Shown here in pieces: positions 6,201-33,049 of a stretch of 64,000 nt of DNA. The notes beneath the pieces were generated by a model. That model saw nothing but the letters and a program-made list of their open reading frames with translations. It ran no database searches and was not told where the DNA came from. Positions within the stretch are counted from its first letter, which is position 1. Each line of letters starts with the position of its first letter. Position numbers and translations under genes: made by a program. Source of the DNA: Naegleria gruberi (taxonomy: Eukaryota); the NCBI GenBank assembly GCA_000004985.1, contig GG738859.1, one strand, 5' to 3'.

Positions 6201-6755
6201 AAGTCAACCAGAAATAAGGCCAAGGCCATTAACTTTGGTATTATCTATGGTATGAGTGAATTTGGTTTATCAAAGAGAATTGGAGTAGACACTCAAGCCG
6301 CCAAGTCATTTATTGAACAATACTTTAAGCAATATCCAGGTATTAAGAATTACATGACCAAGACTATTGAATTTTGTAGAAAACATGGTTATGTAAATAC
6401 TCTTTTCAACAGAAGATGTTGGATACCTGGTATTGAGGACCAAGGATTTGGAGGAAAATCATCTTTTGGTGAGAGAACAAGTATCAATACTCCAATCCAA
6501 GGTACCTCAGCTGATATCACAAAGATTGCAATGAACTCATTACACAAGGCATTCCAGGAGAAGGGATTGAGAACCAGAATGATTATTCAAGTTCATGATG
6601 AAATTGTTTTTGAAGTACCAAAGGATGAAGTGGAAACAGTCGAACCAATCATTAAGGAACTCATGGAAGGTGCAGCATTCTTTGGTGGAACAAACTTTAC
6701 GGTGCCACTAACCGTCGAAGCTACAGTTGACTCAAAATGGTTGGCAGATGAATAA
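3280..6755 (+). CDS. family A (bacterial Pol I-type) DNA polymerase with N-terminal 5'-3' exonuclease domain; 6 exons, ~1085 aa; N-terminal presequence
   Basis: Exons are 3280-3629, 3681-3849, 3892-4458, 4503-4787, 4828-5095 and 5137-6755. Introns are 51, 42, 44, 40 and 41 nt with GTAAGT/GTATGT donors, and splice phases are consistent. The N-terminus MIQSSARNLSKHLMRSGGVAFKRTT resembles an organellar presequence. The 5'-3' exonuclease (5' nuclease) domain is indicated by the motifs KKILLVDGTPLVVRAYFG, GFEADDLIATVA and LVGDTADNIKGVKGIGKK. The central region aligns to the Klenow 3'-5' exo domain but has Exo I altered (CFSTEI instead of FDTETD). Polymerase motifs are A DYSQVELRILAHI, B RNKAKAINFGIIYGMS and C QVHDEIVFE. 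An A7 run precedes the ATG. Confidence 0.85.
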
Positions 6756-19144: not shown

Positions 19145-19263
19145 GGCTACGGCCATATCACGATGAATGCACCTCATCCCGTCCGATTTGAGAAGTTAAG
19201 CATCGTCGAGCCACATCAGTACTGAGGTTGGAGACAACTTGGGAACCTGTGGTGCTGTAGTCT
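19145..19263 (+). rRNA. 5S ribosomal RNA gene (single copy in window, dispersed)
   Basis: The gene reads GGCTACGGCCATATCACGATGAATGCACCTCATCCCGTCCGATTTGAGAAGTTAAGCATCGTCGAGCCACATCAGTACTGAGGTTGGAGACAACTTGGGAACCTGTGGTGCTGTAGTC. The 5' and 3' ends pair to form helix I. Conserved box A and box C-like internal elements are present (CCGATCTCGTCTGATCTCGGAAGCTAAGC-type; GGGAGACC...GGGAA). Confidence 0.85.
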
Positions 19264-25605: not shown

Positions 25606-25895
25606 ATTTCATTCCATGAATACACATTAAGGTGGTAACCTCCACAACTATTAACCATTCATCCGTACTAAAAAATCCTTCAAAAGAGAAAGCGTTGAGT
25701 TTATTCTACTGCAGTGAGGAGGTTATTTTTTCGTACACCAGTATATATTGAGGCTTCACGAAATTGATTGATAACCATTGCAATACAGACATTAAGTTTA
25801 CAACAAAGATTGCTTGCGTTTCAGAGGCCAAAAACTGCGCAACAAAAATCTCGCTGAGCCAACAGACCAAGCTAAATAAAAACAATTTAAAAAAA

Positions 25896-28800
25896 ATGCA
25901 CAAACTAAGCAAGGTCTTCAACGTTTCTTGCAATCATATTGCTAAACAGCAAGCCATTCGTCAATCTTGCTATAAAAAAACAAATATTATTTCATTGTTG
26001 GAAAAGGAAGGACGAAAGCAAGGATTCCATTGCACTGTTTTTAATTCAAGACTTAGAAAATATAGTGAATCGGGTGAAACACCAACAATTGGTATTCGTA
26101 GAGAAGATAAAAATGTTTGGGAACGTAGAGTACCTCTCACACCATCCCAATGTGAAGAATTGATCAAGGAACATGGTATTCGTATTGTAATTCAACCATC
26201 AACAACTCGTGCTTTTGGTGATGAAGAATATAGAGAAGCTGGCTGTGAGATTAATGAAGATTTGAGTATTGCCCAAACAATCTTGGCAGTTAAAGAAGTT
26301 CCAGCCCAATTATTAATTCCGAACAAGACTTACATGTTCTTCTCTCACACAATTAAAGGACAATGGTATAACATGAATATGTTGGACACTATTTTAGAAA
26401 AGAAAATTAGATTGATCGATTATGAACGTATTGTGAAGGAAGTTGAAATTCCAGGAACTGAAAAAACAGTAGAAGAAAGATTGGTAAGATTTGGTCCTTT
26501 TGCTGGTAATGCTGGTGTTATTGATACACTTCATATTCTCGGAGAAAGATTATTGACTCAATATGGATATACAAGTCCTTTCCTCAGCATTTCATATGCT
26601 AGAAATTACATTAGTCTTGAAATTTGTAAACATGCCTTGAATGAAATTGGCAGAAAGATTAGTCAATATGGTATCAACAAGGATTTATTCCCAATGACCT
26701 TTGTTATGACTGGTAAAGGTGGTTCTGTTTGTCATGGTATGAAGGAAATGATTCAACAATTGCAACCTCCAGAATTAACACACAAAACAGTTGAATTTTT
26801 GAGAACACCACAAGAATTGAGAGCTTTGTGGGAAAAGAAAGCTAGAGGTGAAGTAACCAAGGAAGATTGTAGAAAGATTTATATTTTAATTTGTGGTCCT
26901 GAATATATGGTTAAACACAAGTCACAAACTCAACCATTTGACAAGTATGATTACTATGCTAATCCACAAGATTACGAACCAATTTTCCACGAAACAATTA
27001 TTCCATACACTAAAGTTTTGTTAAACGGCATGTATTGGGATGCCAGATATCCAAGATTAATCACTAACAAGCAAGCTAAACAATTAATTGATCAAAATAG
27101 ATTCCCACTCATTTGTGTTGGTGATGTTTCTTGTGATCCTGGTGGTTCTGTTGAATTCTTGACTAAGACTACTACAATTTCCTCTCCTGTCTATGTAAAT
27201 AATATCAAGGAAGACAAGATTCTTGACGATACTGTAATTGGTGAAGGTGTTGCAATGCTTGCTGTTGACCACTTGCCAGCTGAATTCCCAAGATCTTCCA
27301 GTAGTTTGTTTGGTTCTCACCTTTTCCCATTCATTCCAGATCTTGCTAGATCATTTGTTACTATGAGTTCTCCATTAGAAACTCAAATGAAATATTTGCC
27401 AACTGAGCTCAGAAAGGCTGTAATTACATCAGGTGGTAAATTGACACCAAACTTTGAATATATTGACAAGATTAGAGGTCCAAGATCTAGCAGAGTTTTG
27501 ATTTTGGGATCAGGATATGTTGTTCCTCCAATTATTGACTACTTGATCGATAATCCAAGAGATATTGCCACCGTTACCGTTGCCTCTGATAAGATTTCTT
27601 CTGAATTCAAGAGCAAGTATTCTGATTCTAAGAAATCTGTTGAATTTGTTAGTAATCTCAATGTTACTAATGATAGTCAATTGCTTGCTGATTTGATTAG
27701 CAAATGTGATATTGTACTTTCATTGGTTCCAGCTCCACTCCATCCAATTGTTGCTCAACAATGTTTAAAGTATGAAAAACATCTCGTCACTGCCAGTTAT
27801 ATTAGTCCAGAAATGGAACAATTGAACGAACAAGCTAAAGAAAAGGGTTTGCTCTTCATTAATGAAATTGGTTTGGATCCTGGTATTGATCACATGTGTA
27901 TTATGAAGACTCTCGATCAAGTTGTTGGTCAAAGAGGTGGTAAGGTTGAAAGCTTCAAGAGCTTCTGTGGTGCTCTCCCAGCCCCTGAATCATCTGATAA
28001 TCCTCTTGGTTACAAGTTCAGTTGGTCTCCAATTGGTGTTTTGAGAGCTTCTCAAAATCCATGTTTATTCATGAAGGATGGTGAAGTTGTCAATGTTACT
28101 GATGGTAACAAGCTCACTTTCCTCAATGAAAAGGTTGACGTCAAGTTTAAGGGATTCAATTTTGAAGTTATTCCAAACAGAGATTCCCTCAAGTACATTT
28201 CCAAGTACAAGTATCTGAATGAAAAGGACTTGAAGACCATGATGAGAGGAACCCTCAGATTTGGTGGTTTCTGTGAAGTTTTCAGATTACTCACTCTTTT
28301 AGGATACCTCAATCAAAGCACTGTCATTCCAGCTGATGCCAAGACTTATCGTGATATTTTCTGTACTCAATTGGGTGTTCCAGTTTCTACTGATTTGAAG
28401 ACCATTTCTGCCAAGGTCACCAGTCTTTACAATGAAAAGATTGATGCCATGTTCTCTAACATTACTGACAAGTACCAACAAGCTATTTACAATAGACTTA
28501 AGGCTAACGCTCAAACTGATGTTTCTTTCGCTCTCAAGAGTGTAAAACAACTTGGTTTGCTTTCTACTGATTCATTTGGTGAAAAACCAAAGAGTGGATT
28601 ACTCCTTGATTTGATCTGTACTCACCTTGAAAAGGAACTTGCCCTCTCTGCTGATGACAAGGATCTCAACTTTATGGTCCATGAATTTATTGTAAACTAT
28701 GAAAAGGAAAATGTTAAGGAAAAGATTACCTCAACTGTTTGTGTTTATGGTGACAAGAAGGAAGGAACTGCCACAAGTAGAACTGTTGGTTTACCTGTTG

Positions 28801-28973
28801 CTATCACTGCTGTACTTGTTGCTAAGGAATCAGCTGCCCTTAAAAAGTCAGTTGGTGGAGGTGGTGTCATTGGTCCAACTTCAACACCACTTTTATATGA
28901 AGGAGTTTTGAGTAAGCTTGAACAACAAGGAATTACTGTCGAAGAAACTGTTGAACCATACGAAGAAATGTAA
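25896..28973 (+). CDS. AASS: bifunctional lysine-ketoglutarate reductase / saccharopine dehydrogenase (alpha-aminoadipic semialdehyde synthase, AASS-type), ~1025 aa, N-terminal presequence
   Basis: ATG at 25896 after an A-run; the ORF-track start at 25764 is a TTG. The N-terminal half is the AlaDH/PNT-like LKR domain (GIRREDKNVWERRVPLTPSQCEEL, VFFSHTIKGQ). The C-terminal half is saccharopine dehydrogenase (VLILGSGYVVPPIIDYL Rossmann fold, EIGLDPGIDHM). The whole protein is one uninterrupted ORF. Confidence 0.9.
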   Translation: MHKLSKVFNVSCNHIAKQQAIRQSCYKKTNIISLLEKEGRKQGFHCTVFNSRLRKYSESGETPTIGIRREDKNVWERRVPLTPSQCEELIKEHGIRIVIQPSTTRAFGDEEYREAGCEINEDLSIAQTILAVKEVPAQLLIPNKTYMFFSHTIKGQWYNMNMLDTILEKKIRLIDYERIVKEVEIPGTEKTVEERLVRFGPFAGNAGVIDTLHILGERLLTQYGYTSPFLSISYARNYISLEICKHALNEIGRKISQYGINKDLFPMTFVMTGKGGSVCHGMKEMIQQLQPPELTHKTVEFLRTPQELRALWEKKARGEVTKEDCRKIYILICGPEYMVKHKSQTQPFDKYDYYANPQDYEPIFHETIIPYTKVLLNGMYWDARYPRLITNKQAKQLIDQNRFPLICVGDVSCDPGGSVEFLTKTTTISSPVYVNNIKEDKILDDTVIGEGVAMLAVDHLPAEFPRSSSSLFGSHLFPFIPDLARSFVTMSSPLETQMKYLPTELRKAVITSGGKLTPNFEYIDKIRGPRSSRVLILGSGYVVPPIIDYLIDNPRDIATVTVASDKISSEFKSKYSDSKKSVEFVSNLNVTNDSQLLADLISKCDIVLSLVPAPLHPIVAQQCLKYEKHLVTASYISPEMEQLNEQAKEKGLLFINEIGLDPGIDHMCIMKTLDQVVGQRGGKVESFKSFCGALPAPESSDNPLGYKFSWSPIGVLRASQNPCLFMKDGEVVNVTDGNKLTFLNEKVDVKFKGFNFEVIPNRDSLKYISKYKYLNEKDLKTMMRGTLRFGGFCEVFRLLTLLGYLNQSTVIPADAKTYRDIFCTQLGVPVSTDLKTISAKVTSLYNEKIDAMFSNITDKYQQAIYNRLKANAQTDVSFALKSVKQLGLLSTDSFGEKPKSGLLLDLICTHLEKELALSADDKDLNFMVHEFIVNYEKENVKEKITSTVCVYGDKKEGTATSRTVGLPVAITAVLVAKESAALKKSVGGGGVIGPTSTPLLYEGVLSKLEQQGITVEETVEPYEEM

Positions 28974-28997: not shown

Positions 28998-30230
28998 TTA
29001 TTTAAAGATTTCTAATTCGTGATTCTTACGAACAACGTGCAAAACTGGAATGAATGAGGATGGAAGTTGGTAGTCTGATCTTGTCAAAACCGTGATAAGT
29101 GGAGTGTTTAAATTCTTAATCTCAATGAAACGATTCTTTGAATTCTTTAAGGAGGTAGGATCTAAAAAGAAAACTTTCAAATTTGAGATCACGTAATCCT
29201 TTTCACATCCATAAGGGAATGCAGGTCCATTTGGAGGGAACATCATGTCCAATTGTTCTCTCACAGTTTGGTGTTCACTAAAAGTATGAATGAAATCTGT
29301 TTGATTGAATTCATCGTAGGCAAAGATAACAGAGAAGAATACTTCACCACTGTGTTCATCAATTTGGATACCTCCCAAAGGTCCATCACGAGTGTAGGTA
29401 TTCAATTGTTCAGATTCTAGCTCTGTATAATCTCCAATTTTGATTCCCTTTCTATTGGAGAGGAATTTCTTCAATTGTTGTATGGTTTGTTCTTGTTGTC
29501 TCTTCTTTTCTTGCTCTTCAGCTTTCTTTTCTTGCTCCTTTAAAAGTGCATCCTCGGCCTTCTTCATGAAATCCTCAAACAAGGCATGTTTTCCTTCAAT
29601 TTTAAGAGCCCTTTGACAATATTTGATAACTGGCTTGTATTTCTTTAAAGTCATGGCAGCTTTAGCAATTCTGAACATGGCTTTAGTATTCTTATTATCA
29701 ATTTTCAAAACTTCCTTTGCATCCACAATGGCATGTCCATAATTACCCATCAATGTAAAGATGTGTGATCTATTATTTAACAAGTCAATTTTCAATCTTG
29801 TGTCAGTAATTGGTTGCTCCAATCCTTCTGAATAATATCTGATAATATCCTTGTAGTACATTTCTGGATTTTTACTATCCTTCAACAAGTTATTTCCTTG
29901 ATTTTTAAAATTGGTTGCAATTTCATCTGGAGTACCATCATATCTAAGTTCAGCCAAAGCCATAGCAATTGGATTGTCCAAACCAATGTCATTCATCAAC
30001 AATGGATGGTCTCCTTTACACCAATCAGGTAATTCCTTTGGAACAACAGGAATCCAGTCATCATCATCGTCATCACCTTCCATTAATTCTTGATAAGTCA
30101 TTGGCTTCTTCTTGTTTGTTGCAGAGGCTTCAGGTGTAACAATATCTTCTACCAAAACCTCTTCGGTACTCTTTTCCGAAGTCGATGATGAAGAAGTGAG
30201 AGGAGTTGAAGTTTGTTCGTTATTACTCAT
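28998..30230 (-). CDS. TPR-repeat protein, TTC4/Cns1-like Hsp90 co-chaperone architecture (N-terminal TPRs + C-terminal wheel-like domain), 410 aa
   Basis: ATG at 30228-30230. It has an acidic stretch DDDDDDW, three TPR-like helical pairs (FKNQGNNLLKD..., MGNYGHAIVDAKEVLKIDNKNTKAMFRIAKAAMTLKKYKPVIKYCQRALKIEG) and a K/E coiled region. The conserved C-terminal region is IFAYDEFNQTDFIHTFSEHQTV...FFLDPTS. Confidence 0.5.
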   Translation of the reverse strand: MSNNEQTSTPLTSSSSTSEKSTEEVLVEDIVTPEASATNKKKPMTYQELMEGDDDDDDWIPVVPKELPDWCKGDHPLLMNDIGLDNPIAMALAELRYDGTPDEIATNFKNQGNNLLKDSKNPEMYYKDIIRYYSEGLEQPITDTRLKIDLLNNRSHIFTLMGNYGHAIVDAKEVLKIDNKNTKAMFRIAKAAMTLKKYKPVIKYCQRALKIEGKHALFEDFMKKAEDALLKEQEKKAEEQEKKRQQEQTIQQLKKFLSNRKGIKIGDYTELESEQLNTYTRDGPLGGIQIDEHSGEVFFSVIFAYDEFNQTDFIHTFSEHQTVREQLDMMFPPNGPAFPYGCEKDYVISNLKVFFLDPTSLKNSKNRFIEIKNLNTPLITVLTRSDYQLPSSFIPVLHVVRKNHELEIFK

Positions 30231-31005: not shown

Positions 31006-31996
31006 ATGTGTTGTGGAGGAGAGAGTGATAAAACAAAAAACAACAATGAATGTAGTGTATCACCTCATCATGATGAAAATTTATTAATTAATAATATTAA
31101 TTGTGTGATGAATGTTGTTATATAATCTGTATCGGAACTAATAGTAAACATTAAAGTTGTAAATCCACAGCCATCAGCTTCTACAATAGCTGCTCGCACC
31201 ATTCAATCAAATTATGACGAATTATTTAAAGTAATTGTCATTGGAGACTCAAGTGTTGGAAAAACAAGTTTACTGAACAAGATGGTTGTAAGTTAATTTT
31301 GAAAATAATCGGAAAATAATTATTACAGTCAGGAACATTTACAGATTCGTTCATGCCAACTGTTGGAGTTGATTTGTAAGTTTTTTAAAAGAGAGGAATT
31401 TGACTGAAATTTCAATATTAAGGAAAGTGAGGTTTTTAACAATTGACGGTAAAAACATTAAACTCCAAATATGGGATACTGCCGGACAGGTATGTTTTAA
31501 AAAAATTGAAAATATTCAAAAATGTTTTAGGAAAGATATAGAAATTTAACAAAATCATACTATCGTGGAAGTGATGGTATTATACTTGTTTATGATATGT
31601 AAGTTTTTTTTTGAAATAGTTCAGTAATATATTGGTGAATTGGTCCATTCAAACATGCAACTGTTCAAATATGATAGAACCCAAGAAAAAACATTTAATA
31701 ACTTGAGTATTTGGTTGAATGAAGTTAAAAAGAACATTTTGGGAGTAAATAATGGAGATGCATTACCTATTGGAGCTGATCTTAATATTTTCATTATTGG
31801 AAACAAGACTGACTTGGAAACTGCTAGAAATGTATCAACAGATAAGGGCAAAAAGTTTGCAGAATCACTCCAAATTGATGCCATGTTTGAGGAAATTTCT
31901 TGTAAAACAACTGAATCCATTGAGGAGACTGTATTATGTAGATTGGCCAGAAGAATTCTCGAAACTCGTCAACGAGAAAAGAATGAAGAACGTTAA
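31006..31996 (+). CDS. Rab-family small GTPase lacking C-terminal Cys prenylation motif; 6 exons (first exon tentative), ~222 aa
   Basis: Exons 2-6 are well supported: 31171-31287, 31331-31377, 31425-31491, 31531-31598 and 31678-31996, with 39-79-nt introns, GTAAGT/GTATGT donors and consistent phases. They encode KVIVIGDSSVGKTSLLNKMV (G1), TVGVDL (switch I), WDTAGQERY (G3), YYRGSDGIILVYDIT, FIIGNKTDL (G4) and EISCKT (G5). The tentative first exon 31006-31056 (MCCGGESDKTKNNNECS, GTATCA donor) joins in frame. An alternative GTGATG donor lies at 31105. The protein ends ...ETRQREKNEER with no Cys. Confidence 0.75.
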
Positions 31997-32100: not shown

Positions 32101-33049
32101 GTGTCAACACCAACTTTTATTCCCCAACAACCAGTGGTCCGTCTACATGCTCTATTGAAGGAGAATCCAACTCTCTTGGATCAACAACAAACCATGCAAT
32201 TGATCAAGAATATTTTACAAAATATTGTTGCTCATCCGTACGATGATAAGTTTAGATCGATTAAATTGTCAAATCCAAAACTCTCTGAGAAGATTGTTCA
32301 AGTTAAAGGTGCTCTCGATATATTGTTATTGTGTGGTTTTTCTAGAGTGAGAGAAAATAATGAGGAATATATTAAATTGTATGATGCTGATGTTCAATCA
32401 ATAGAGGTGATGAAGAAGATTATTGAGACCTATGTAGGTATTGAAACATTTTAATGTAATCGAAACTAAATTTGTGGAATAATTATAGGAACAACGAAGA
32501 GAATTATTAACATTACCAAGTTTGGGCTCCCAACCATCAACATCTTCCAACAATTCCACAAATTCAACTCCTTCATTTGTTTTAGATGAGTCCTATACAA
32601 TTATTTTGCAATTCAGAAATTCTCAACATCAAGTCATTGAAGAAATGCTTTTTGAAAAGGAGAAATATGCAGGTCATTTAACATTGGGAGAAGTTGTCTT
32701 TCCACGAATGGAACAAAGACTTCGTGAACTGAACTGGCCAGGTTTCGCGTTATATGCCGAACATGAACCAGTTTATAGACATACTACTTTAGATGATTTG
32801 AATTATCAGAGAAAGAATCAAAAAATAACTTTACAATGTGAAGATCATAATTGTCAATATCGTGCTGTCTTGACGCCTGTAATTGAGAGTGAGGAATGTG
32901 TTGTTTGCTTTGAACCTTTAAATAATAGTAATAGAACTGGAGGATTATGTATGCATCGTTGTGCATGTAAGAATTGCTTTAAATTGTTGGATAAATGTCC
33001 AATTTGTAGAAAGACAATTGACCATAATAATAGAAGCAGACTTTTATAA
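32101..33049 (+). CDS. PUB-domain + C3HC4 RING-finger protein (putative E3 ubiquitin ligase); 2 exons joined in frame; 5' end/start codon unresolved
   Basis: Exon 1 (frame open from about 32086; first in-frame ATG at 32194) ends at 32433 (GTAGGT donor). A 55-nt intron follows, and exon 2 is 32489-33049. The PUB/PUG-like region is LLKENPTLLDQQQTMQLIKNILQNIVAHPYDDKFRSIKLSNPKLSEKIVQVKGALDILLLCGF. The RING is CVVCFEPLNNSNRTGGLCMHRCACKNCFKLLDKCPICRK. Confidence 0.55.

What the first reader, a model, noticed from the sequence alone, without database searches (positions are those of the whole stretch)
31006..31996. Canonical Rab GTPase core without C-terminal prenylation cysteines; candidate N-terminal MCCGG acylation exon
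Exons 2-6 encode a bona fide Rab with all five G-boxes, but the protein terminates ...RRILETRQREKNEER with no CC/CXC/CAAX tail. Rabs normally need this tail to bind membranes. An upstream mini-exon in the correct frame and phase would add MCCGGESDK..., giving an N-terminal Cys-Cys-Gly that could be S-acylated. If this is right, the protein is an N-terminally anchored Rab-like GTPase. The first-exon assignment is tentative. Donor GTATCA lies at 31057, and an alternative donor GTGATG lies at 31105.
Basis: partly seen in the sequence, partly recalled or inferred. Interest (0 to 1): 0.55.

Follow-up and report, generated by a model that had tools for sequence, protein, structure and literature searches.

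The report
Naegleria Rab with N-terminal cysteine anchor
This is a real Rab-type trafficking GTPase gene of the amoeba Naegleria gruberi that has lost the usual lipid-accepting cysteines at its tail and instead starts with a conserved Cys-Cys-Gly-Gly, so it is probably fixed to membranes by fatty acylation at the opposite end from normal Rabs.

Summary
Window 31006-31996 (+) is a six-exon Naegleria gruberi gene encoding a Rab-family GTPase (Pfam Ras, E 1e-50; best solved relatives are Rab1A/B, then Rab8A and Ypt1). G1-G4 are canonical and G5 is SCK rather than SAK. The protein ends ...QREKNEER with no C-terminal cysteine.

The GenBank model (XP_002679007.1, "ran family small GTPase, partial") lacks the 5' exon. 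That exon is real. The syntenic orthologues start MCCGGE (N. lovaniensis) and MSCCGG (Willaertia magna). In Willaertia this N-terminus lies in the same exon as the start of the G domain. An environmental relative starts MSCCGK. None has a C-terminal Cys motif.

Intron 1 is refined but not settled. Three GT donors overlap in a decamer (GTAGTGTATC) shared by the two Naegleria species. The alternative donor at 31105 is unsupported. Every plausible model keeps MCCGGESDKTKNNNE.

The family is tiny: four sequences stand out among 5.8 billion proteins. It is not Rab5-derived and has no Gly2, unlike ARA6 and PfRab5B. S-acylation is inferred, not shown. I rate it a new variant of a known kind, of moderate interest.

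The parts
31006..31051 (+). Exon 1 (coding mini-exon): ATG plus MCCGGESDKTKNNNE and the first base of the next codon. In the alternative model it runs to 31056 (…ECS).
   Evidence: The same start is seen in N. lovaniensis (L001 6001) and Willaertia (L002 6002). All three have an A-rich context before the ATG.
31009..31020 (+). Codons for Cys2-Cys3-Gly4-Gly5, the proposed S-acylation site.
   Evidence: C-C-G is invariant in the four family members, inside an N-terminal extension that otherwise cannot be aligned.
31052..31144 (+). Intron 1, preferred model: 93 nt, GTAGTG...AATAG, phase 1. Alternative: 31057-31170, GTATCA...CACAG, phase 0. It contains the in-frame TAA at 31123-31125.
   Evidence: Enumeration of all open GT-AG combinations. 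The decamer GTAGTGTATC is shared with N. lovaniensis. The annotated N. lovaniensis model uses the equivalent GTAGTG donor.
31145..31287 (+). Exon 2: linker (L)NIKVVNPQPSASTIAARTIQSNYDELFK plus beta1 and the P-loop GDSSVGKT (31243-31266).
   Evidence: The segment 31145-31170 (NIKVVNPQ) matches N. lovaniensis QIKVGNVPQQ, mostly with synonymous third-position changes. The DNA score is reached by 31 of 1000 shuffles, which is modest support.
31329..31375 (+). Exon 3: SGTFTDSFMPTVGVD(L), covering switch I and the G2 Thr.
31423..31489 (+). Exon 4: KVRFLTIDGKNIKLQIWDTAGQ, containing G3 and the RabF2 motif.
   Evidence: The acceptor is 31422|31423, one base away from a naive reading (one search compared).
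31531..31598 (+). Exon 5: ERYRNLTKSYYRGSDGIILVYD(I), covering switch II and the RabF3-F5 motifs.
31678..31996 (+). Exon 6: the rest of the G domain. It contains an 11-residue insertion GVNNGDALPIG (31742-31774), G4 NKTD (31802-31813), G5 SCK (31898-31906), helix alpha5 and the stop TAA (31994-31996). It has no hypervariable tail and no terminal Cys.
   Evidence: P0001 (GenBank XP_002679007.1) is 100% identical from SNYDELFK to the end.

Best explanation
The locus is an intact six-exon gene of Naegleria gruberi for a lineage-restricted Rab paralogue. The paralogue is found in Naegleria, Willaertia and one environmental relative.

The G domain is a normal Rab switch. It has the P-loop, the switch I Thr, DTAGQ with the catalytic Gln, NKxD and the Rab-family motifs. 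The membrane-attachment module has moved to the other end of the protein. The C-terminal hypervariable tail and its geranylgeranylated cysteines are gone. A roughly 40-residue low-complexity N-terminal extension begins with Cys-Cys-Gly-Gly.

The most likely mechanism runs in three steps. First, the initiator Met is removed (Cys2 in Naegleria, Ser2 in Willaertia). Second, the two adjacent cysteines are S-acylated by DHHC acyltransferases, which tethers the G domain to a membrane through the flexible N-terminal linker. Third, membrane residence is governed by an acylation/deacylation cycle rather than by the Rab escort protein, RabGGTase and GDI, while GTP/GDP switching still controls effector binding.

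Shown here: the gene structure, Rab identity, absence of a C-terminal Cys, and conservation and exon continuity of the N-terminal CCG(G).

Inferred: the lipidation, the membrane localisation and the independence from GDI.
For: Organism and gene: P0001 of N. gruberi is 100% identical over exons 2-6.

Rab identity:
- Pfam Ras E 1e-50.
- The best 60 PDB hits are all Rab, Ypt or Sec4 proteins, led by Rab1A at 157 bits.
- KLQIWDTAGQE and LVYDIT are identical to canonical Rabs.

N-terminus is real and constrained:
- N. lovaniensis starts MCCGGE and Willaertia starts MSCCGG; the environmental P0045 starts MSCCGK.
- CCG is invariant while the rest of the extension is unalignable.
- In Willaertia and on the P0045 contig, the motif is contiguous with the G domain in one ORF.
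- Neither Naegleria species has an in-frame ATG downstream of the intron-1 stop and before the P-loop.

Orthology:
- The neighbours are conserved: a TTC4/Cns1-like gene on the minus strand immediately upstream in all three species, and saccharopine dehydrogenase beyond it in the two Naegleria species.
- Ng+Nl+Wm form a clade with 100% bootstrap, and with P0045 added the support is 72%.

No C-terminal Cys in any member.

Precedents:
- ARA6 and PfRab5B are N-terminally acylated Rabs without prenyl cysteines (PMC3912013; PMC5869587).
- An N-terminal CC pair alone suffices for membrane binding of GAP-43 (MLCCMRR, Cys3/4; PMC2994833).
- N-terminal Cys S-acylation without myristoylation anchors ARL15 (PMC13196370).
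Against: - No transcript evidence was obtainable. The preferred 229-aa model was built afterwards and was not looked up.
- The intron-1 donors are all non-consensus (GTAGTG, GTGTAT, GTATCA, against GTAAGT or GTATGT in the other four introns).
- No lipidation predictor or experiment was available.
- The N-terminal stretch is neutral to acidic (ESDKTKNNNE). It lacks the basic or hydrophobic patch that often gives palmitoyl-only proteins their initial membrane affinity.
- No N. fowleri orthologue appeared in the protein searches, so the gene is dispensable in at least part of the genus or is unannotated there.
- The N. lovaniensis assembly carries a 1-nt deletion in the P-loop codons. This could be a sequencing error or decay of that copy.
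Confidence: 0.72

Rival explanations
1. The protein is a soluble, non-lipidated Rab-like GTPase, comparable to IFT27/RABL4 or RABL2. These lack prenylation sites and act in protein complexes, for example in flagellar transport during the Naegleria amoeba-to-flagellate switch. The N-terminal cysteines would then serve another role, such as redox sensing, metal binding or disulfide formation.
For: Rab-like GTPases without prenylation sites exist, for example RabL4/IFT27 (PMC3425129). No lipidation test was possible. The N-terminus is not basic or hydrophobic.
Against: The G domain is a typical group-I Rab and carries the canonical Rab family motifs, unlike the divergent RABL proteins. The best hits are Rab1 and Rab8 at 44-48% identity. 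The only invariant feature of a 35-60-residue extension that cannot otherwise be aligned is an adjacent CC at positions 2-3 or 3-4, which is the classic S-acylation arrangement. No N. fowleri orthologue was detected although that species also makes flagella.
Confidence: 0.13
2. In Naegleria species the exposed N-terminal Cys, after Met removal, acts as a Cys/Arg N-degron, as in RGS4/5 and the plant ERF-VII factors (MCGG...). Rab abundance would then depend on oxygen or nitric oxide. This could act instead of, or in competition with, acylation.
For: Both Naegleria proteins start with Met-Cys. N-terminal Cys oxidation and arginylation control the stability of Met-Cys proteins in plants and animals (PMC11199558).
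Against: Willaertia and P0045 start MSCC, so after Met removal the N-terminal residue would be Ser, not Cys. The conserved element is the CC pair, not a terminal Cys. Whether Naegleria has ADO/PCO-type oxidases or ATE1 was not examined.
Confidence: 0.05
3. The 5' mini-exon is a fortuitous ORF. The real gene is 5'-truncated, decaying, or uses a different unseen first exon.
For: The public N. gruberi model is 5'-partial. The exon-1 donors are non-consensus. The N. lovaniensis copy has a frameshift in the assembly.
Against: The same start peptide is found at the syntenic orthologues of two other species, and it is exon-continuous with the G domain in Willaertia. All catalytic motifs are intact in N. 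gruberi. ATG 31006 is the first ATG of its ORF and sits in an A-rich context shared by all three species.
Confidence: 0.04

Closest known systems
ARA6/RabF1 (land plants, charophytes) and Rab5B of Plasmodium and Toxoplasma
   Same: These are Rab-family GTPases that have lost the C-terminal geranylgeranylation cysteines and attach to membranes through N-terminal fatty acylation. They are lineage-specific, neofunctionalised paralogues (PMC3912013; PMC5869587).
   Different: Those proteins are Rab5-related and begin MGC: N-myristoylation on Gly2 plus palmitoylation. The Naegleria protein is closest to Rab1 and Rab8, with no Rab5 among the best 60 PDB hits. It has no Gly2 and carries an adjacent Cys pair only. 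Any anchor must therefore be S-acyl only, and the origin is independent.
Rab1/Ypt1 and Rab8/Sec4 (group I Rabs)
   Same: These are the best sequence relatives, at 44-48% identity over the whole G domain. The KLQIWDTAGQE and LVYDIT motifs are identical.
   Different: It is not an orthologue. It falls outside the Rab1 and Rab8 clades in the NJ tree. It has family-specific changes (ERYRNLTKSYYR, G5 SCK, one extra residue in alpha5), no hypervariable tail and no CC/CXC terminus.
GAP-43, ARL15 and ARL13B, which are anchored by N-terminal cysteines that are S-acylated without myristate
   Same: Cysteines near the N-terminus serve as the sole lipid acceptor. This is shown for GAP-43 (MLCCMRR, Cys3/4; PMC2994833) and for ARL15 (Cys17/22/23; PMC13196370).
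   Different: These are unrelated or only distantly related proteins. GAP-43 has a basic patch next to its CC pair, which the Naegleria sequence lacks.
Rheb variants with N-terminal S-palmitoylation (Zahonova et al. 2018)
   Same: They are an example of repeated evolutionary tinkering with the membrane-attachment module of a Ras-superfamily GTPase (PMC5869587).
   Different: [quoted passage not shown] This Rab has lost its C-terminal lipid site altogether.

Membership tests
Rab family (Ras superfamily) | Small-GTPase G domain with the G1-G5 nucleotide-binding motifs | tested here: met
   GDSSVGKT, T74, DTAGQ, NKTD and SCK are all present. Pfam Ras E 1e-50. G5 has Cys in place of the usual Ala in all three orthologues.
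Rab family (Ras superfamily) | Rab-specific RabF motifs around switch I/II (IGVDF, KLQIWDTAGQE, RFRSIT, YYRGA, LVYDIT). The motif definitions are recalled from Pereira-Leal & Seabra 2000. | tested here: met
   The protein has VGVDL, KLQIWDTAGQE, RYRNLT, YYRGS and LVYDIT in alignments with Rab1 and Rab8 sequences. All of the best 60 PDB hits are Rab, Ypt or Sec4 proteins.
Rab family (Ras superfamily) | C-terminal CC/CXC/CCXX(X) geranylgeranylation motif at the end of a hypervariable tail | tested here: not met
   The protein ends ...RQREKNEER. The last Cys lies in helix alpha5, 20 residues from the end. The same holds in N. lovaniensis, Willaertia and P0045.
Rab1 subfamily (orthologue of Rab1/Ypt1) | Groups with Rab1 sequences and shows high identity to them | tested here: not met
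   Identity to Rab1 proteins is only 44-48%. The profile score drops from 331-403 bits for family members to about 222 bits for Rab1s. The NJ tree places the family outside the Rab1, Rab8 and Rab18 clades. NJ on 179 columns is a coarse test.
ARA6/Rab5B-type N-terminally acylated Rabs | Gly2 N-myristoylation motif (MGxxxS/T) with a nearby Cys | tested here: not met
   Residue 2 is Cys (Naegleria) or Ser (Willaertia, P0045), and no member has Gly2.
ARA6/Rab5B-type N-terminally acylated Rabs | Rab5-group ancestry | tested here: not met
   No Rab5, Rab21 or Rab22 is among the best 60 PDB hits. The top hits are Rab1, Rab8, Rab3, Rab35, Rab2, Rab14 and Rab10.
ARA6/Rab5B-type N-terminally acylated Rabs | Loss of the C-terminal prenyl cysteines together with acylatable residues at the extreme N-terminus | tested here: met
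   This is a functional analogy only, because the two features above fail.
Ran family (the name given in GenBank) | Best similarity to Ran | tested here: not met
   All named top hits are Rabs, and no Ran is among the best 60 PDB hits or the 120 best database hits. The GenBank name is a misnomer.
S-acylated (palmitoylated) peripheral membrane proteins | Thioester-linked fatty acid on the cysteines, and membrane binding that depends on them | not testable with these tools
   Only the sequence prerequisite (a conserved, exposed N-terminal CC pair) could be shown. No predictor or experiment was available.

The most novel reading that the evidence does not exclude
A Rab whose membrane cycle is fully uncoupled from the REP, RabGGTase and GDI machinery. 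It would be anchored solely by a reversible di-S-acyl N-terminus, so that acyltransferase and thioesterase activity, rather than GDI extraction, sets where and how long the Rab sits on a membrane. In the two Naegleria species the exposed Met-Cys start could additionally compete between acylation and Cys N-degron oxidation, which would link Rab abundance to oxygen.
Probability: 0.15. Interest if true: 0.65.

Novelty: new variant of a known kind. Interest (0 to 1): 0.4.

Why it matters
Rabs are usually defined by C-terminal geranylgeranylation and GDI-mediated cycling. The few known exceptions (ARA6, apicomplexan Rab5B) are Rab5-derived and myristoylated.

This gene would be an independent, Rab1/8-like case in Heterolobosea that uses a Cys-Cys-only anchor. 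It adds to the evidence that the membrane-attachment modules of Ras-superfamily GTPases are swapped repeatedly in evolution.

It also corrects two public gene models. The N. gruberi entry is 5'-partial and misnamed "ran family". The N. lovaniensis entry lacks its P-loop.

The protein is a compact test case for how a Rab behaves without GDI. It is an incremental advance, not a paradigm change.

Tried and rejected
1. Exact-sequence look-up of the 222-aa and 238-aa models, to obtain transcript-derived proof. Neither is in the collection. The preferred 229-aa model was derived later and was not looked up.

2. In N. lovaniensis the same frame meets TGA before the equivalent GTGATG. The apparent intron similarity that includes GTGTGATG is not significant: 106 of 1000 shuffles reach the score.

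3. An intron-encoded box C/D snoRNA suggested by the GUGAUGA. Rfam gives only snR62 at 30.7 bits against a gathering score of 55, E 0.46. There is no D box and the match runs into exon 2. Rejected.

4. A global DNA alignment of the 5' regions misaligned the two ATGs because the introns differ in length (93 vs 201 nt). I replaced it with an enumeration of open GT-AG combinations and a codon-wise comparison.

5. One broad clade of N-acyl-motif Rabs. Nematostelium (MCCGG), Pharyngomonas (MGCG), P0334 (MGCGQSK), environmental MGNCF proteins and Nolandella (MGSKSSKK) do not group with the Naegleria family. I treat them as separate acquisitions.

I did not pursue it, because the sequence match to solved Rab1A covers the whole G domain.

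8. Literature searches found no description of this protein. Elias et al. 2012 (PMC3383260) is not held, so its supplementary Rab lists could not be checked.

9. Many top database hits are artificially fused tandem-Rab predictions with summed scores. I ignored them.

Full report
**What the window is.** The DNA has 31-38% G+C and short introns of 41-93 nt. The spliced product of exons 2-6 is 100% identical to GenBank XP_002679007.1/EFC46263.1, "ran family small GTPase, partial [Naegleria gruberi]" (P0001, 193 aa). The window is therefore Naegleria gruberi nuclear DNA. The public model starts at SNYDELFK and lacks a start codon.

**Checking the observation.** I rebuilt the gene from the sequence.
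- Exons 3-6 are 31329-31375, 31423-31489, 31531-31598 and 31678-31996.
- Their introns are 41-79 nt, with GTAAGT or GTATGT donors and AG acceptors.
- With exon 2 ending at 31287, they give a single ORF that ends ...RRILETRQREKNEER-TAA (31994-31996).
- The product matches Pfam Ras at E 1e-50 and solved Rab1A at E 3.5e-45 over the whole G domain.
- G1 GDSSVGKT, the switch I Thr, DTAGQ and NKTD are canonical.
- G5 is SCK, whereas other Rabs have SAK. This holds in the three named orthologues.
- There is no cysteine in the last 20 residues.
- ATG 31006 opens MCCGGESDK... and is the first ATG of its ORF.
- The same frame runs into one stop (31123-31125) and then stays open through the P-loop without any Met.

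**Is the MCCGG exon real?** Related sequences answer this.
- The two closest proteins in 5.8 billion sequences are from N. lovaniensis (P0002, starts MCCGGEQGS...) and Willaertia magna (P0004, starts MSCCGGSSS...).
- Both genes are syntenic with the window. A TTC4/Cns1-like TPR+Wheel gene lies on the opposite strand immediately upstream in all three species. In the two Naegleria species a saccharopine dehydrogenase gene lies beyond it.
- In Willaertia, MSCCGG..., the linker and YDELFKVIVVGDSS lie in one uninterrupted exon. The N-terminal Cys pair there cannot be an artefact of intron prediction.
- A fourth relative is an intron-free environmental contig (P0045/L003). It starts MSCCGKGK and shares family-specific residues: [ST]NYD, ERYRNLTKSYYR, a non-canonical G5, and one extra residue in alpha5.
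- In the four-way alignment, M, C, C and G are invariant while the following 30-55 residues cannot be aligned.
- None of the four has a C-terminal Cys motif. Willaertia's longer tail ends GCHSTSN.
- The N. gruberi and N. lovaniensis proteins stop at the same alignment position. The next gene (PUB domain 32101-32454 plus RING 32522-33049) starts about 100 nt after the stop.

**Intron 1.** N. gruberi and N. lovaniensis share the decamer GTAGTGTATC at the end of exon 1. It offers three overlapping GT donors: 31052, 31055 and 31057 in the window.
- The pair 31052 (GTAGTG, phase 1) with 31144|31145 gives 229 aa: ...NNNE-L-NIKVVNPQPSAS....
- The second pair mirrors the annotated N. lovaniensis splice, ...KKDE-I-QIKVGNVPQQQPQQSAS....
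- The extra segment differs between the species mostly at synonymous third positions (ATT/ATA, GTT/GTA, AAT/AAC, CAG/CAA). The DNA-level score is only modestly above chance, with 31 of 1000 shuffles reaching it.
- I prefer 31052/31145 but cannot exclude 31057/31171.
- The alternative donor at 31105 is not supported. The equivalent reading frame is closed in N. lovaniensis, and the local intron similarity is not significant.
- All plausible models keep MCCGGESDKTKNNNE.
- No transcript-derived copy of the 222-aa or 238-aa model was found. The 229-aa model was not looked up.

**What kind of Rab it is.**
- The best solved relatives are Rab1A/B (about 150-157 bits), then Rab8A, Ypt1, Sec4, Rab3, Rab35, Rab2, Rab14 and Rab10. 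No Rab5-group protein is in the top 60.
- Identity to canonical Rab1, Rab8 and Rab18 proteins is 44-48%.
- A profile of the four family members scores them at 331-403 bits and then drops to about 222 bits for ordinary Rab1s.
- An exhaustive HMMER pass over 1.84 billion representatives adds no further close relative.
- In an NJ tree (179 columns, 300 bootstraps), N. gruberi, N. lovaniensis and Willaertia group at 100%, and with P0045 at 72%. The group lies outside the Rab1, Rab8/10 and Rab18 clades.
- No N. fowleri protein appeared in any search.

The family is thus a narrow, fast-evolving, group-I Rab paralogue of vahlkampfiid amoebae.

**Mechanism.** What is shown is a normal Rab switch domain, no C-terminal hypervariable tail or prenyl acceptor, and a flexible extension of about 40 residues whose only conserved element is an adjacent Cys pair at positions 2-3 or 3-4.

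What follows from established knowledge:
- Rabs need lipid to act on membranes. RabGGTase/REP modifies C-terminal cysteines and GDI extracts the prenylated GDP form (PMC3425129 background).
- Adjacent N-terminal cysteines are classic DHHC substrates. They suffice to anchor GAP-43 (MLCCMRR, Cys3/4; PMC2994833).
- N-terminal Cys S-acylation without myristate anchors ARL15 (PMC13196370).

My inference is that the protein is di-S-acylated at Cys2/Cys3 and tethered by its N-terminus. It would be recycled by acylation and deacylation rather than by GDI. Because Willaertia and P0045 have Ser2, the common denominator is the CC pair and not a free N-terminal cysteine. This argues against N-palmitoylation or a Cys N-degron (PMC11199558) as the conserved function.

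Weak points of the inference:
- There is no direct lipidation evidence.
- There is no basic or hydrophobic patch next to the CC pair.
- The exon-1 donors are non-consensus.

**Comparison with the known.** Rabs that swapped C-terminal prenylation for N-terminal acylation are known. They are plant ARA6/RabF1 and apicomplexan Rab5B (PMC3912013; PMC5869587). Those are Rab5-derived and use Gly2 myristoylation plus palmitoylation. The present family fails both of those defining features (no Gly2, not Rab5-like), so it is an independent analogue rather than a member.

While scanning the hits I also saw other Rab1-like proteins with N-terminal acyl motifs and no C-terminal Cys:
- Nematostelium gracile, MCCGG
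- Pharyngomonas kirbyi, MGCGNSK
- an unidentified EukProt species, MGCGQSK
- environmental MGNCF proteins
- Nolandella, MGSKSSKK

They do not group with the Naegleria family. This suggests that the swap is recurrent among protists.

I found no paper describing this protein. The supplementary Rab catalogue of Elias et al. 2012 could not be consulted.

**Verdict.** The first-intron boundaries are refined but not settled. This is a new variant of a known kind, of moderate interest (0.4).

Noticed in passing
L001 about 6395-6410 (N. lovaniensis PYSW02000026.1): Compared with N. gruberi, the N. lovaniensis assembly lacks one base in the P-loop codons (GGAAAAAC-TCT). The annotated protein XP_044547324.1 therefore splices around the region and lacks VIVIGDSTTGKTSLLNK. 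This is either a homopolymer assembly error or a real frameshift.
   Followed up: partly
window 31171-31996 (GenBank XP_002679007.1): The public N. gruberi model is 5'-partial (it starts at SNYDELFK). It is named 'ran family small GTPase' although every close relative is a Rab.
   Followed up: yes
proteins P0080, P0038, P0334/P0340, P0025/P0121/P0209, P0263, P0251: Other Rab1-like proteins have N-terminal acylation motifs and no C-terminal Cys. They are Nematostelium gracile (MCCGG), Pharyngomonas kirbyi (MGCGNSK), an unidentified EukProt transcriptome (MGCGQSK), environmental MGNCF/MGNNCF proteins and Nolandella (MGSKSSKK). They do not cluster with the Naegleria family, so the anchor swap looks recurrent.
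   Followed up: partly
window 31742-31774: An 11-residue insertion (GVNNGDALPIG) lies between helix alpha3 and strand beta5. It is present in both Naegleria species but absent from Willaertia, P0045 and canonical Rabs.
   Followed up: no
window 31288-31677; L001 6424-6820; L002 6224-6708: Intron positions are poorly conserved among the three orthologues. Willaertia has no intron between the N-terminus and the G domain but has two inside the P-loop region. N. lovaniensis has introns flanking a 12-nt DTAG micro-exon and none at the YD|IT site used in N. gruberi.
   Followed up: no
window 19145-19263 (+): A 5S ribosomal RNA gene (Rfam RF00001, 105 bits, full length).
   Followed up: no
window 28998-30230 (-) and 25764-28973 (+): A TTC4/Cns1-like co-chaperone gene (TPR + Wheel domain) is divergently oriented to the Rab gene across a 775-bp intergenic region. 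Upstream of it lies a large gene that matches the N. lovaniensis neighbour annotated with AlaDh_PNT and saccharopine dehydrogenase domains. The order and orientation are conserved in N. lovaniensis, and in Willaertia for the TPR gene.
   Followed up: partly
window 32101-33049 (+): The downstream gene encodes a PUB domain (E 2e-19) followed, after a short intron, by a C3HC4 RING finger (E 2e-8). It starts only about 100 nt after the Rab stop codon.
   Followed up: partly
window 31101-31186 (+): A sub-threshold Rfam match to the box C/D snoRNA family snR62 (30.7 bits against a gathering score of 55, E 0.46), seeded by a GUGAUGA C-box-like heptamer in intron 1. It has no D box and overlaps exon 2, so it is judged to be chance.
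   Followed up: yes
L003 780-923: The environmental contig carrying P0045 repeats its own internal sequence (about 484-590) after the stop codon. This suggests an assembly chimera at its 3' end. The coding part is intact.
   Followed up: no
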